Positions 25,834-43,534 of a stretch of 43,534 nt of DNA are shown piece by piece (within the stretch, counting starts at the first letter, position 1; every line of letters starts with the position of its first letter). The stretch lies in contig CM120644.1 in NCBI GenBank assembly GCA_051362555.1, positions 1-43,534 on the forward strand. Direction: 5' to 3'. Made by a program: the position numbers and the translations under genes. The DNA is from Lingula anatina (taxonomy: Eukaryota; Animalia; Brachiopoda). Under the pieces are notes generated by a model, which was given only the letters and a program-made list of their open reading frames with translations, ran no database searches and had not been told where the DNA came from.

Positions 25834-25962
25834 TCACCTCCTCCGTAACCATCCAGGCACGCGCCAACGCCCCCGTAAACGGACGGCACGGTGCTCCCGC
25901 GTCTTTTTTGCTGTGTTTTCCGAAAGCCTATTCGTGGTCTCCGACAAGCTTTGGCCAGATAT
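25834..25962 (-). CDS. Putative last exon of the EGF-array/C-type lectin gene (ISGQSLSETTNRLSENTAKKTREHRAVRLRGRWRVPGWLRRR*)
   Basis: GC-rich island preceded by a strong acceptor (ctcacattttttcag|ATA at 25963/25962). Phase 0 matches the donor CAG|gtaaac at 26218. TGA at 25836-25834. No domain homology recognised. Confidence 0.45.
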   Translation of the reverse strand: MSGQSLSETTNRLSENTAKKTREHRAVRLRGRWRVPGWLRRR

Positions 25963-26217
25963 CTGAAAAAATGTGAGTCATTTTACTCTCTTTGATGCCA
26001 CTTCTTTGGTCTTTAATTTACGGCTGATTCTAACATAGCTATACTAATAAAAATAGAACGATGCCACCAACAGGACCAGAAGTGCATGCTAAATGTATTC
26101 AAGCACGACCTCAATGCATGTGACTTATTTCACTTGAGATTAATATTTTCAAGGTCTATTTATATAATTGGGTTGTGGAATTTCATAAAATTTCACATAT
26201 TTGCCGCCATTGTTTAC

Positions 26218-38500: not shown

Positions 38501-41500
38501 AGCGCAGTCATCGGCGGCCAGGGCACACTCATCTACGTCGGCACACGCTGTGCCGTCGCCGGTGAAGCCAGCCAGGCAGGTGCAGGTGAAACTGCCCACG
38601 GTGTTGGCGCAGGTGGCATTCTCAGCGCAGTCATCGGCGGCCAGGGCACACTCATCTACGTCGGCACACGCTGTGCCGTCGCCGGTGAAGCCAGCCAGGC
38701 AGGTGCAGGTGAAACTGCCCACGGTGTTGGCGCAGGTGGCATTCTCAGCGCAGTCATCGGCGGCCAGGGCACACTCATCTACGTCGGCACACGCTGTGCC
38801 GTCGCCGGTGAAGCCAGCCAGGCAGGTGCAGGTGAAACTGCCCACGGTGTTGGCGCAGGTGGCATTCTCAGCGCAGTCATCGGCGGCCAGGGCACACTCA
38901 TCTACGTCGGCACACGCTGTGCCGTCGCCGGTGAAGCCAGCCAGGCAGGTGCAGGTGAAACTGCCCACGGTGTTGGCGCAGGTGGCATTCTCAGCGCAGT
39001 CATCGGCGGCCAGGGCACACTCATCTACGTCGGCACACGCTGTGCCGTCGCCGGTGAAGCCAGCCAGGCAGGTGCAGGTGAAACTGCCCACGGTGTTGGC
39101 GCAGGTGGCATTCTCAGCGCAGTCATCGGCGGCCAGGGCACACTCATCTACGTCGGCACACGCTGTGCCGTCGCCGGTGAAGCCAGCCAGGCAGGTGCAG
39201 GTGAAACTGCCCACGGTGTTGGCGCAGGTGGCATTCTCAGCGCAGTCATCGGCGGCCAGGGCACACTCATCTACGTCGGCACACGCTGTGCCGTCGCCGG
39301 TGAAGCCAGCCAGGCAGGTGCAGGTGAAACTGCCCACGGTGTTGGCGCAGGTGGCATTCTCAGCGCAGTCATCGGCGGCCAGGGCACACTCATCTACGTC
39401 GGCACACGCTGTGCCGTCGCCGGTGAAGCCAGCCAGGCAGGTGCAGGTGAAACTGCCCACGGTGTTGGCGCAGGTGGCATTCTCAGCGCAGTCATCGGCG
39501 GCCAGGGCACACTCATCTACGTCGGCACACGCTGTGCCGTCGCCGGTGAAGCCAGCCAGGCAGGTGCAGGTGAAACTGCCCACGGTGTTGGCGCAGGTGG
39601 CATTCTCAGCGCAGTCATCGGCGGCCAGGGCACACTCATCTACGTCGGCACACGCTGTGCCGTCGCCGGTGAAGCCAGCCAGGCAGGTGCAGGTGAAACT
39701 GCCCACGGTGTTGGCGCAGGTGGCATTCTCAGCGCAGTCATCGGCGGCCAGGGCACACTCATCTACGTCGGCACACGCTGTGCCGTCGCCGGTGAAGCCA
39801 GCCAGGCAGGTGCAGGTGAAACTGCCCACGGTGTTGGCGCAGGTGGCATTCTCAGCGCAGTCATCGGCGGCCAGGGCACACTCATCTACGTCGGCACACG
39901 CTGTGCCGTCGCCGGTGAAGCCAGCCAGGCAGGTGCAGGTGAAACTGCCCACGGTGTTGGCGCAGGTGGCATTCTCAGCGCAGTCATCGGCGGCCAGGGC
40001 ACACTCATCTACGTCGGCACACGCTGTGCCGTCGCCGGTGAAGCCAGCCAGGCAGGTGCAGGTGAAACTGCCCACGGTGTTGGCGCAGGTGGCATTCTCA
40101 GCGCAGTCATCGGCGGCCAGGGCACACTCATCTACGTCGGCACACGCTGTGCCGTCGCCGGTGAAGCCAGCCAGGCAGGTGCAGGTGAAACTGCCCACGG
40201 TGTTGGCGCAGGTGGCATTCTCAGCGCAGTCATCGGCGGCCAGGGCACACTCATCTACGTCGGCACACGCTGTGCCGTCGCCGGTGAAGCCAGCCAGGCA
40301 GGTGCAGGTGAAACTGCCCACGGTGTTGGCGCAGGTGGCATTCTCAGCGCAGTCATCGGCGGCCAGGGCACACTCATCTACGTCGGCACACGCTGTGCCG
40401 TCGCCGGTGAAGCCAGCCAGGCAGGTGCAGGTGAAACTGCCCACGGTGTTGGCGCAGGTGGCATTCTCAGCGCAGTCATCGGCGGCCAGGGCACACTCAT
40501 CTACGTCGGCACACGCTGTGCCGTCGCCGGTGAAGCCAGCCAGGCAGGTGCAGGTGAAACTGCCCACGGTGTTGGCGCAGGTGGCATTCTCAGCGCAGTC
40601 ATCGGCGGCCAGGGCACACTCATCTACGTACGGCACACGCTGTGCCGTCGCCCGGTGAAGCCAGCCAGGCAGGTGCAGGTGAAACTGCCCACGGTGTTGG
40701 CGCAGGTGGCATTCTCAGCGCAGATCATCGGCGGCCAGGGCACACTCATCTACGTCGGCACACGCTGTGCCGTCGCCGGTGAAGCCAGCCAGGCAGGTGC
40801 AGGTGAAACTGCCCCACGGTGTTGGCGCAGGTGGCATTCTCAGCGCAGTCATCGGCGGCCAGGGCACATCTACGTCGGCACACGCTGTGCCGTCGCCGGT
40901 GAAGCCAGCCAGGCAGGTGCAGGTGAAACTGCCCACGGTGTTGGCGCAGGTGGCATTCTCAGCGCAGTCATCGGCGGCCAGGGCACACTCATCTACGTCG
41001 GCACACGCTGTGCCGTCGCCGGTGAAGCCAGCCAGGCAGGTGCAGGTGAAACTGCCCACGGTGTTGGCGCAGGTGGCATTCTCAGCGCAGTCATCGGCGG
41101 CCAGGGCACACTCATCTACGTCGGCACACGCTGTGCCGTCGCCGGTGAAGCCAGCCAGGCAGGTGCAGGTGAAACTGCCCACGGTGTTGGCGCAGGTGGC
41201 ATTCTCAGCGCAGTCATCGGCGGCCAGGGCACACTCATCTACGTCGGCACACGCTGTGCCGTCGCCGGTGAAGCCAGCCAGGCAGGTGCAGGTGAAACTG
41301 CCCACGGTGTTGGCGCAGGTGGCATTCTCAGCGCAGTCATCGGCGGCCAGGGCACACTCATCTACGTCGGCACACGCTGTGCCGTCGCCGGTGAAGCCAG
41401 CCAGGCAGGTGCAGGTGAAACTGCCCACGGTGTTGGCGCAGGTGGCATTCTCAGCGCAGTCATCGGCGGCCAGGGCACACTCATCTACGTCGGCACACGC

Positions 41501-43534
41501 TGTGCCGTCGCCGGTGAAGCCAGCCAGGCAGGTGCAGGTGAAACTGCCCACGGTGTTGGCGCAGGTGGCATTCTCAGCGCAGTCATCGGCGGCCAGGGCA
41601 CACTCATCTACGTCGGCACACGCTGTGCCGTCGCCGGTGAAGCCAGCCAGGCAGGTGCAGGTGAAACTGCCCACGGTGTTGGCGCAGGTGGCATTCTCAG
41701 CGCAGTCATCGGCGGCCAGGGCACACTCATCTACGTCGGCACACGCTGTGCCGTCGCCGGTGAAGCCAGCCAGGCAGGTGCAGGTGAAACTGCCCACGGT
41801 GTTGGCGCAGGTGGCATTCTCAAGCGCAGTCATCGGCGGCCAGGGCACACTCATCTACGTCGGCACACACGCTGTGCCGTCGCCGGTGAAGCCAGCCAGG
41901 CAGGTGCAGGTGAAACTGCCCACGGTGTTGGCGCAGGTGGCATTCTCAGCGCAGTCATCGGCGGCCAGGGCACACTCATCTACGTCGGCACACGCTGTGC
42001 CGTCGCCGGTGAAGCCAGCCAGGCAGGTGCAGGTGAAACTGCCCACGGTGTTGGCGCAGGTGGCATTCTCAGCGCAGTCATCGGCGGCCAGGGCACACTC
42101 ATCTACGTCGGCACACGCTGTGCCGTCGCGGTGAAGCCAGCCAGGCAGGTGCAGGTGAAACTGCCCACGGTGTTGGCGCAGGTGGCATTCTCAGCGCAGT
42201 CATCGGCGGCCAGGGCACACTCATCTACGTCGGCACACGCTGTGCCGTCGCCGGTGAAGCCAGCCAGGCAGGTGCAGGTGAAACTGCCCACGGTGTTGGC
42301 GCAGGTGGCATTCTCAGCGCAGTCAATCGGCGGCCAGGGCACACTCATCTACGTCGGCACACGCTGTGCCGTCGCCGGTGAAGCCAGCCAGGCAGGTGCA
42401 GGTGAAACTGCCCACGGTGTTGGCGCAGGTGGCATTCTCAGCGCAGTCATCGGCGGCCAGGGACTCATCTACGTCGGCACACGCTGTGCCGTCGCCGGTG
42501 AAGCCAGCCAGGCAGGTGCAGGTGAAAACTGCCCACGGTGTTGGCGCAGGTGGCATTCTCAGCGCAGTCATCGGCGGCCAGGGCACACTCATCTACGTCG
42601 GCACACGCTGTGCCGTCGCCGGTGAAGCCAGCCAGGCAGGTGCAGGTGAAACTGCCCACGGTGTTGGCGCAGGTGGCATTCTCAGCGCAGTCATCGGCGG
42701 CCAGGGCACACTCATCTACGTCGGCACACGCTGTGCCGTCGCCGGTGAAGCCAGCCAGGCAGGTGCAGGTGAAACTGCCCACGGTGTTGGCGCAGGTGGC
42801 ATTCTCAGCGCAGTCATCGGCGGCCAGGGCACACTCATCTACGTCGGCACACGCTGTGCCGTCGCCGGTGAAGCCAGCCAGGCAGGTGCAGGTGAAACTG
42901 CCCACGGTGTTGGCGCAGGTGGCATTCTCAGCGCAGTCATCGGCGGCCAGGGCACACTCATCTACGTCGGCACACGCTGTGCCGTCGCCGGTGAAGCCAG
43001 CCAGGCAGGTGCAGGTGAAACTGCCCACGGTGTTGGCGCAGGTGGCATTCTCAGCGCAGTCATCGGCGGCCAGGGCACACTCATCTACGTCGGCACACGC
43101 TGTGCCGTCGCCGGTGAAAGCCAGCCAGGCAGGTGCAGGTGAAACTGCCCACGGTGTTGGCGCAGGTGGCATTCTCAGCGCAGTCATCGGCGGCCAGGGC
43201 ACACTCATCTACGTCGGCACACGCTGTGCCGTCGCCGGTGAAGCCAGCCAGGCAGGTGCAGGTGAAACTGCCCACGGTGTTGGCGCAGGTGGCATTCTCA
43301 GCGCAGTCATCGGCGGCCAGGGCACACTCATCTACGTCGGCACACGCTGTGCCGTCGCCGGTGAAGCCAGCCAGGCAGGTGCAGGTGAAACTGCCCACGG
43401 TGTTGGCGCAGGTGGCATTCTCAGCGCAGTCATCGGCGGCCAGGGCACACTCATCTACGTCGGCACACGCTGTGCCGTCGCCGGTGAAGCCAGCCAGGCA
43501 GGTGCAGGTGAAACTGCCCACGGTGTTGGCGCAG
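29551..43534 (-). CDS. Giant single exon encoding >=113 tandem calcium-binding EGF-like domains (partial, continues beyond the window)
   Basis: 41-aa unit [41 protein letters not shown] with six EGF cysteines, the DxDEC Ca2+ motif and CxNxxGSFxC. About 90 units are in one frame (29551-~40629), and scattered indels occur beyond that. Ends ...TICSDIR A|gtaggt, a phase-1 donor matching the next exon. Confidence 0.9.
29571..43534. repeat. 123-bp coding tandem repeat, ~113.5 copies, ~66% GC
   Basis: Exact 123-bp periodicity. I saw no substitution between units, only indels after 40629. The unit has 81/123 G+C and 11 CpG by hand count. Confidence 0.99.

What the first reader, a model, noticed from the sequence alone, without database searches (positions are those of the whole stretch)
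25834..43534. Giant extracellular-type protein: >=113 identical cbEGF domains capped by a C-terminal C-type lectin domain
Seen in sequence: the EGF exon (donor phase 1 at 29551), exon 28922-28724 (phase 1 to 2) and exon 26452-26218 (phase 2 to 0) join in frame through canonical GT-AG sites. The joined protein reads (EGF)n-TICSDIR-T-CLGP...KCY...FC...WIGL...WKD..C...IC. The array is therefore part of a real spliced gene of more than 4,800 aa, not a satellite that happens to be open. Established: tandem cbEGFs form Ca2+-stiffened rods, but fibrillins have about 43 cbEGFs and Notch about 36 EGFs, all diverged from one another. Inference: a very long uniform rod presenting a lectin-like head, possibly an adhesive, mucus, egg-coat, biomineral-matrix or recognition protein. 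I do not recognise it as a named gene. No transmembrane segment is visible after the CTLD.
Basis: partly seen in the sequence, partly recalled or inferred. Interest (0 to 1): 0.88.

Follow-up and report, generated by a model that had tools for sequence, protein, structure and literature searches.

The report
Giant identical-EGF rod with lectin-fold cap
Next to a chromosome end of an invertebrate lies the tail of a gene in which about 113 near-identical calcium-binding EGF modules run into a C-type-lectin-fold cap; it likely encodes a very long secreted structural fibre like the octopus egg-thread protein, but no RNA from this copy was found.

Summary
The anatomy is real, with one correction. 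A 123-bp array (29570-43534, minus strand, 113.5 copies) encodes a full calcium-binding EGF; 102 of 112 internal units are identical in DNA. Twelve indels and no substitutions, all in the last 2.9 kb, break the frame, so only about 90 units are in frame as deposited; they look like contig-end read errors. GT-AG exons after the array give a C-type lectin domain (CTLD) lacking the EPN/QPD and WND sugar motifs, then a basic tail with no membrane segment. A Lingula anatina protein (XP_023932855.1) has the same EGF-to-CTLD junction. Public DNA of another sample holds the locus, probably a second EGF+CTLD locus, and at least hundreds of related units whose listed differences are 9 of 10 synonymous. 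Six RNA runs gave no junction read and no read attributable to this copy's exons, only traces from diverged copies. The architecture is known (octovafibrin: CTLD-EGF29-CTLD) and longer EGF runs exist (Dumpy, 308). What is new is the complete homogenisation of a 11-14 kb cbEGF exon in a multi-copy family. New variant of a known kind; expression, 5' end and function are unproven.

The parts
29551..43534 (-). Giant EGF exon (5' end outside the window): 113.5 copies of a 123-bp unit, each one cbEGF; ends at a phase-1 GT donor
29678..40624 (-). 89 consecutive units identical at every base
40630..43119 (-). 12 indels, 0 substitutions (most extend or shorten a homopolymer or micro-repeat); break the frame; likely read errors at a thin contig end
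28724..28922 (-). CTLD exon A (phase 1 to 2), Lectin_C positions 4-35; 48% identical to XP_023932855.1 residues 74-133
26218..26452 (-). CTLD exon B (phase 2 to 0), Lectin_C positions 43-106, WIGL motif, no EPN/QPD, WKD in place of WND; 46% identical to XP_023932855.1 residues 141-211
25834..25962 (-). Predicted last coding exon: 42-aa basic tail (12 K/R, 3 D/E), stop codon; GC 0.574 against at most 0.512 in 711 overlapping non-exonic windows; no Pfam match; absent from the Lingula homologue
25503..25508 (-). First AATAAA downstream of the stop; candidate poly(A) signal (inferred)
26536..26882 (.). High-copy MITE-like element with 24-nt terminal inverted repeats inside intron 2
1..17901 (+). 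Telomeric (CCCTAA)n array; the gene points towards it and its stop lies about 7.9 kb away

Best explanation
This is the 3' end of a subtelomeric gene in which one huge exon of near-identical calcium-binding EGF units joins in frame to a C-terminal C-type-lectin-fold domain, and it likely encodes a secreted, acidic, glycosylated rod that serves as a structural fibre (egg coat, holdfast or cuticle-type matrix) made only in a particular tissue or stage. Shown: the array, the exons, the domain identities, a homologue with the same junction, and a large family of related units with mostly silent differences. Inferred: each unit binds Ca2+ at its junction with the previous one (DxDEC start, C-x-N-x4-F-x-C, one linker residue), giving a rod of about 250 nm (90 units) to 310 nm (113 units) at 2.75 nm per cbEGF; each unit carries 7 acidic and no basic residues, one N-glycan sequon, an O-fucose-type site and an exact POGLUT2/3 O-glucose site; the CTLD, which lacks sugar-site motifs, and the basic tail would act as a protein-binding end cap that links rods to each other or to the matrix, as proposed for octovafibrin; unequal crossing-over and gene conversion near the telomere would keep the units identical and let the length vary.
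For: Domain calls above Pfam cut-offs. In-frame GT-AG junctions. XP_023932855.1 of Lingula anatina is the best single-domain hit among 1.84 billion representatives (E 5.6e-11; named) and aligns without a break across all three coding parts: 68% to the EGF end, 48% and 46% to the two CTLD exons, six CTLD cysteines in both. In DNA run X3 and RNA run X12, 9 of the 10 listed variant places in related units are synonymous, against 24% expected for random changes. The locus is present in other samples (7 runs hold at least half of the sampled words; X3 covers the exons without listed indels in them). Ten reads in X12 come from a related tandem array, all with the first mate on +, which in a stranded library means RNA from the EGF-coding strand, six crossing a unit junction. 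Glycosylation and hydroxylation motifs (consensus from PMC8405936). Precedents: octovafibrin, sbp9, mfp2, sfp3/4, APAP-1 (PMC10336842, PMC12817120).
Against: No junction read and no read attributable to this copy's exons in six RNA runs: 0 on exon A in X12, X15, X18 (6%, 6%, 25% of each run read; X15 and X18 laid nothing at all, so are no test), 0 on exon B and the tail exon in X13 and X16, and in X19 depth of about one read on exon B with 16 differences plus about one read over 25732-25903. The deposited frame is broken 12 times. No signal peptide or 5' end is visible. The synonymous signal belongs to the family, not to this copy; in this copy X3 shows one amino-acid-changing difference in exon B, and the probable paralogue shows 2 silent and 2 changing differences among the 4 listed. 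The Lingula homologue is a gene model that stops right after the CTLD, so the tail exon has no outside support. No tissue, fibre or binding evidence exists; octovafibrin EGFs are not calcium-binding by PROSITE and EGTA did not change its mechanics (PMC10336842).
Confidence: 0.55

Rival explanations
1. A silent or runaway copy: the family is functional elsewhere, but this subtelomeric copy has had one unit amplified like a satellite and is no longer expressed.
For: No RNA from this copy in the runs laid. Total identity, silent sites included, means recent amplification and gives no sign of selection on this array. It sits among a telomere and 39-, 58- and 69-bp minisatellites. Related units are extremely abundant in X3 (708 contigs on about 130 bp).
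Against: All three splice junctions, the CTLD cysteines and the frame over 3,721 codons are intact; the locus is shared by several samples; the whole family is nearly silent in these runs, so the samples probably lack the expressing tissue; the 12 indels have the pattern of read errors.
Confidence: 0.2
2. A stalked recognition molecule: a type II membrane or secreted receptor whose CTLD is held about 0.3 micrometre from the cell to bind microbes, gametes or neighbours.
For: A C-terminal CTLD on a repeated neck is the layout of type II lectin receptors (recalled). The 5' end is unseen, so an anchor is not excluded. Homogenised repeat expansions occur in egg-coat recognition proteins such as VERL, 23 ZP-N domains (PMC8830517). 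CTLDs differ strongly between family members (46-48% to the homologue against 68% for the EGF).
Against: No EPN/QPD or WND motif in this CTLD or in the homologue. No membrane segment in the visible part. Immune receptors would more likely be seen in bulk adult RNA (inference).
Confidence: 0.12
3. A shell or biomineral matrix protein that presents a regular acidic, Ca2+-loaded lattice.
For: Seven acidic and no basic residues per unit, 22% alanine. EGF, calcium-binding EGF and C-type lectin domains occur in Lingula shell proteomes (PMC4595640, PMC13425148).
Against: XP_023932855 has 0 occurrences in the supplement of PMC13425148, and in its sheet S10 the proteins listed under PF00059 and PF07645 are different ones. 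This is weak, because the unit has no K/R and would be invisible to trypsin. The organism of the window is not established.
Confidence: 0.08
4. The great length and perfect identity are largely made by the assembler; the true array is much shorter or more varied.
For: The contig ends inside the array, both ends carry errors and the telomere is also flawless over 17.2 kb; no raw long reads could be examined. None of 103 fetched proteins with 8 or more cbEGFs has more than 3 identical units.
Against: In short-read contigs of X3 the summed depth of window-type bases is 71 to 2,720 times the unique flank, by whether one divides by the worst-case 31-fold overlap of contigs (my arithmetic; the tool warns that summed depth is not a copy number). 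Perfect repeats usually collapse rather than expand (PMC6868369, passages).
Confidence: 0.05

Closest known systems
Lingula anatina XP_023932855.1 (RefSeq name 'adhesion G protein-coupled receptor E2-like', 212 aa)
   Same: cbEGF units of the same length and type, the same short linker into a six-cysteine CTLD without EPN/QPD/WND; 68%, 48%, 46% identity to the three coding parts.
   Different: Gene model holds only about 1.5 EGF units (probably truncated by collapse; inferred), stops straight after the CTLD, has no basic tail; the database name is not supported (no GAIN or 7TM region in 212 aa). Function unknown.
Octovafibrin (Octopus bimaculoides egg thread, XP_014771937.1; PMC10336842)
   Same: Uninterrupted EGF run ending in a C-terminal CTLD; secreted fibre whose lectin domains are proposed to drive end-to-end assembly.
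   Different: 29 diverged EGFs, none calcium-binding by PROSITE, and an N-terminal CTLD; here at least 90 identical full cbEGFs and an unseen N-terminus. Orthology not tested.
Scallop byssal sbp9, mussel mfp2, sea star sfp3/4, ascidian APAP-1 (PMC12817120)
   Same: Tandem EGF-like repeats as the cohesive bulk of marine holdfasts (49 in sbp9).
   Different: No C-terminal CTLD described in the passages read; fewer repeats; identity between repeats not stated.
Fibrillins (PMC2198817, PMC3306419, PMC8405936)
   Same: cbEGF consensus, one-residue linker, beta-hydroxylation and POGLUT2/3 motifs; rod-like Ca2+-bound arrays.
   Different: No TB or hybrid domain in 113 units; CTLD in place of the fibrillin C-terminus; units identical rather than diverged.
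Drosophila Dumpy (PMC12723725)
   Same: Giant extracellular filament with hundreds of EGF modules (308 in 22,949 aa).
   Different: Dumpy interleaves 185 DPY modules and (recalled) ends in a ZP domain and membrane anchor; none is seen here.
Lectican G3 region (versican; Atlas rank 2, score 0.84, a lead only)
   Same: EGF followed by a C-terminal CTLD; lectican CTLDs bind cbEGF-rich matrix proteins by protein contacts (recalled), a model for head-to-rod binding.
   Different: One or two EGFs and a Sushi domain after the CTLD; no Sushi match here.

Membership tests
Calcium-binding EGF domain | Six cysteines, D/N-x-D/N-E/Q-C start, C3-x-D/N-x4-Y/F-x-C4 | tested here: met
   Pfam EGF_CA above cut-off; motifs in every consensus unit; best PDB sequence and fold matches are cbEGF proteins (model pLDDT only 62.7)
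C-type lectin-like domain | WIGL core and conserved disulphide cysteines | tested here: met
   Lectin_C 34.9 bits on exon B, weak match on exon A; six cysteines aligned with the homologue; 30 of 32 PDB matches are CTLD proteins
Ca2+-dependent sugar-binding C-type lectin | EPN or QPD motif plus WND motif | tested here: not met
   Neither motif in exon B or in XP_023932855.1
Octovafibrin-type fibre | Uninterrupted EGF run ending in a C-terminal CTLD | tested here: met
   definition from PMC10336842
Octovafibrin-type fibre | Signal peptide and N-terminal CTLD | not testable with these tools
   The window ends inside the array; no genome is held
Octovafibrin-type fibre | EGFs without the calcium-binding consensus | tested here: not met
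   Full cbEGF consensus here
Octovafibrin-type fibre | Orthology to XP_014771937.1 | not tested
Octovafibrin-type fibre | Main component of an egg thread or case | not testable with these tools
   Needs tissue RNA or proteomics
Fibrillin | TB and hybrid domains between cbEGF runs | tested here: not met
   113 units with no other domain; signature from PMC3306419; the unseen 5' part is untested
Dumpy | DPY modules, C-terminal ZP domain and membrane anchor | tested here: not met
   No such match in the four coding parts scanned; no hydrophobic segment
Adhesion GPCR E (EGF-TM7) | GAIN domain and seven membrane helices after the EGFs | tested here: not met
   CTLD and stop follow the EGFs; none of 14 candidate downstream acceptors opens a phase-0 frame with a hydrophobic window above 1.54
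Selectins and group 14 CTLD proteins | CTLD at the N-terminus, EGFs after it, membrane anchor at the C-terminus | tested here: not met
   Order is reversed and no anchor follows; family layout recalled and from search listing
Lectican | Sushi domain after the CTLD | tested here: not met
   No Pfam match in the tail exon

The most novel reading that the evidence does not exclude
The animal carries a family of expressed giant fibre genes in which single exons of 14 kb or more, perhaps far more, hold hundreds of DNA-identical cbEGF units, each locus homogenised to its own unit and capped by its own non-sugar-binding CTLD. Molecule length would then be set by satellite-like turnover of a coding exon, giving uniform Ca2+-stiffened glyco-rods of 0.3 micrometre and up, which short-read assemblies and trypsin proteomics both miss.
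Probability: 0.3. Interest if true: 0.75.

Novelty: new variant of a known kind. Interest (0 to 1): 0.5.

Why it matters
If expressed, it is a natural homopolymer of one cbEGF: a clean system for measuring how Ca2+, N-glycans and O-glucose set the stiffness of EGF rods, which diverged, interrupted arrays such as fibrillin obscure. It would extend the octovafibrin design (EGF rod with CTLD caps) to another lineage and about four times the length, and show spidroin- or mucin-like concerted evolution acting on a folded disulphide domain. It also points to a gene family that is under-annotated: the only named homologue is a 212-aa fragment with a misleading name, and the unit has no trypsin site.

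Tried and rejected
No whole genome is held, so the 5' end and paralogues could not be read. No RNA holder was listed by the run index; the tool says this blank is no evidence on expression. Word-index searches for longer relatives of exon B (24 candidates, none at E 0.001) and of the homologue's CTLD (306 candidates, none at E 1e-5) found nothing; both cover only proteins up to 2,000 aa and are weak evidence. The EGF search (2,775 hits, 120 listed) gave generic EGF-rich proteins. Single-sequence AlphaFold models were poor: six units pLDDT 62.7, pTM 0.23; homologue pLDDT 35.9, unusable. ESM Atlas gave only generic Lectin_C or EGF clusters. Earlier findings of this scan: none in three look-ups. 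Ten literature searches listed no paper whose title or abstract start describes a brachiopod EGF-array-CTLD gene or a DNA-identical cbEGF array; one search returned 0 papers; the library lacks most subscription papers. Rejected: the 785-codon frame in the 39-bp satellite as a further exon (unit variants change amino acids in every open frame, read by eye); the antisense open frames of the array (the family's variation is silent in the EGF frame); a downstream membrane exon. Read-through of the donor at 26218 would add 22 hydrophilic residues and is not excluded. The organism was not established.
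Full report
Setting. The window runs from a telomeric (CCCTAA)n array at 1-17901, through 11.6 kb of AT-rich DNA with three minisatellites, into a 123-bp array at 29570-43534 with 113.5 copies. The telomere has 13 irregularities in its first 300 bases and none from there to 17545; the other end also carries errors (below). 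I infer that the window is a whole long-read contig with thin ends that stops inside the array. No genome is held for it.

The array. On the minus strand each unit is a 41-aa EGF. Four units score 153.5 bits on Pfam EGF_CA and 161 on EGF_3. 102 of 112 full internal units are identical to the consensus at every base, 89 of them in a row. Aligning the first 3 kb of the minus strand to a perfect tandem shows 12 indels and 0 substitutions between 43119 and 40630; by eye 7 are one-base homopolymer changes, 3 are micro-repeat slips and 2 are other one-base insertions, and none recurs in a neighbouring unit. The chance that all 12 fall in the last 2.9 of 14.0 kb is about 7e-9 if they were spread evenly. 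They look like read errors, but as deposited the frame is open only for 3,721 codons (about 90.6 units), about 3,900 aa with the C-terminal part, against 4,848 aa if they are errors. Openness proves little, since two antisense frames are also stop-free.

The exons. The donor at 29551, exons 28922-28724 and 26452-26218, and the acceptor at 25962 are canonical GT-AG with matching phases. The middle exons match Lectin_C positions 4-35 and 43-106, and 30 of 32 PDB matches to the second are CTLD proteins. The domain keeps WIGL and six cysteines but has no EPN/QPD and WKD where WND would be. The last exon gives a 42-aa basic tail; its GC of 0.574 is reached by 0 of 711 overlapping non-exonic windows, which favours, but does not prove, coding. 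No hydrophobic segment occurs in the CTLD, the tail, the 22-aa read-through or any of 14 candidate acceptors further down (highest 1.54).

Homologue. A search of 1.84 billion representatives with exon B gave 367 hits, the strongest being multi-CTLD proteins that add up many weak matches; the best single-domain hit was P0073, Lingula anatina XP_023932855.1 (ten of the 150 listed hits were looked up). It has about 1.5 cbEGFs followed by a CTLD and aligns in order to the EGF end (68%), exon A (48%) and exon B (46%). This is independent support for the EGF-to-CTLD join, though it is itself a gene model. It suggests a brachiopod or related invertebrate, but the organism was not established. No longer relative was found. 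Of 277 proteins fetched, 103 have 8 or more cbEGFs by my pattern; the most uniform has mean pairwise identity 0.82 and none has more than 3 identical units (proteins up to 2,000 aa in the EGF search). Only P0073 among them has a WIGL-type motif directly after its last cbEGF (12 proteins carry both).

DNA in other samples. Seven DNA runs of one organism hold at least half of the sampled words of 25480-29800. In X3 the flank is one contig of depth 88.8 with 5 differences in 1,296 bases, all intronic, while 708 contigs lie on the stretch, nearly all on the 130 bp of EGF unit, with summed depth up to 1.2 million. The tool warns that this is not a copy number; dividing by the flank and by a worst-case 31-fold contig overlap gives 367 to 11,374 related units, and 71 to 2,720 for window-type bases. 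Nine of the 10 listed variant places are synonymous, against 24% for random changes (P 3.6e-4 for third positions, sites not independent). A contig of depth 83.6 matches the EGF unit and 28 bases of exon A, and a contig of the same depth matches part of exon B with 4 listed differences, 2 silent and 2 not (159 rows of that table were not shown); I infer one contig and a second EGF+CTLD locus. So the unit is under selection as protein in the family, and the family is large.

RNA. Six of nine offered RNA runs were laid, three per stretch. On 28250-29700, X12 gave 10 reads, all 90-95% alike and all on the EGF unit, first mate on +, six crossing a unit junction; X15 and X18 gave none; exon A had none. 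On 24700-27270, X13 and X16 had no depth on exon B or the tail exon, and X19 had about one read on exon B with 16 differences and about one over 25732-25903, possibly one pair from a diverged copy or population; no joint was listed at an exon boundary among those shown (69 not shown). Thousands of reads on an intronic mobile element show that the organism is in X13, X16 and X19. Only 6 to 26% of each run was read and tissues are unknown. Expression of this copy is therefore not shown, and the family is nearly silent in these samples.

Mechanism. Each unit has the DxDEC start, the beta-hydroxylation motif, an exact POGLUT2/3 motif (consensus from PMC8405936, passages), a C2-x4-T-C3 O-fucose-type site (consensus recalled), an N-glycan sequon, 7 acidic and no basic residues. 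Contiguous Ca2+-bound cbEGFs form rods of about 2.75 nm per domain (PMC2198817, passages), so 90-113 units give about 250-310 nm, against about 160 nm predicted for fibrillin. A six-unit model was of low confidence but matched cbEGF structures. I infer a secreted acidic glyco-rod whose CTLD and basic tail bind protein or polyanion rather than sugar through the classical site, and whose units are kept identical by unequal exchange in the subtelomere. Concerted evolution of repeated domains is described for egg-coat proteins (PMC8830517, passages).

Comparison. Octovafibrin is signal peptide, CTLD, 29 EGFs, CTLD, and is the main protein of octopus egg threads; its EGFs are not calcium-binding by PROSITE (PMC10336842; abstract, introduction, start of methods and passages read). 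Tandem EGF-like repeats recur in marine holdfasts, 49 in scallop sbp9 (PMC12817120, passages). Dumpy has 308 EGF modules and chicken CREMP 81 consecutive similar disulphide modules (PMC12723725, passages). Fibrillin membership fails for lack of TB and hybrid domains (PMC3306419, passages). Lingula shell proteomes contain EGF and lectin domains (PMC4595640, PMC13425148; passages and supplement searches), but the homologue's accession was not found in the 2026 supplement; the 2015 supplement uses other identifiers and only the first places of each term were seen. So it works like an octovafibrin-type capped EGF fibre, by inference, without being shown to be a member.

Verdict. The feature is real and gene-like, its layout is known, and its extreme homogeneity, single-exon length and family size were not found in my searches. 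With expression, the 5' end and function open, I rate it a new variant of a known kind, interest 0.5.

Noticed in passing
window 26536-26882: MITE-like element with 24-nt terminal inverted repeats and TTAA-type ends (Kolobok/T2-like by recall); very high copy in DNA run X3 and abundant on both strands in three RNA runs.
   Followed up: partly
window 22036-24566: 39-bp subtelomeric minisatellite, 65 copies, with long stop-free frames on both strands (785 codons on the gene's strand); unit variants change amino acids, so probably non-coding.
   Followed up: partly
window 27289-27984 and 28078-28235: 58-bp (12 copies) and 69-bp (2.3 copies) minisatellites inside intron 2.
   Followed up: no
window 1-17901: 17.9 kb of telomeric repeat, flawless over 17.2 kb, with CCCTAG variant units at about 17613-17865 next to the unique DNA.
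   Followed up: partly
window 29565-29626 (run X3, record 2): A 78-base contig of near single-copy depth matches the end of the last unit with 6 differences, and the unique contig stops at 29545: signs of further array ends elsewhere in the genome.
   Followed up: no
proteins P0164, P0239, P0247: Marine-invertebrate and unnamed proteins that pair fairly uniform cbEGF runs with a fibrinogen-like domain (PF00147); others pair them with SEA, ZP or NIDO domains, so EGF stalks with varied end domains recur.
   Followed up: no
window 19600-20320: Degenerate short repeats rich in a GCATTC-type motif, possibly an old transposon remnant (seen).
   Followed up: no
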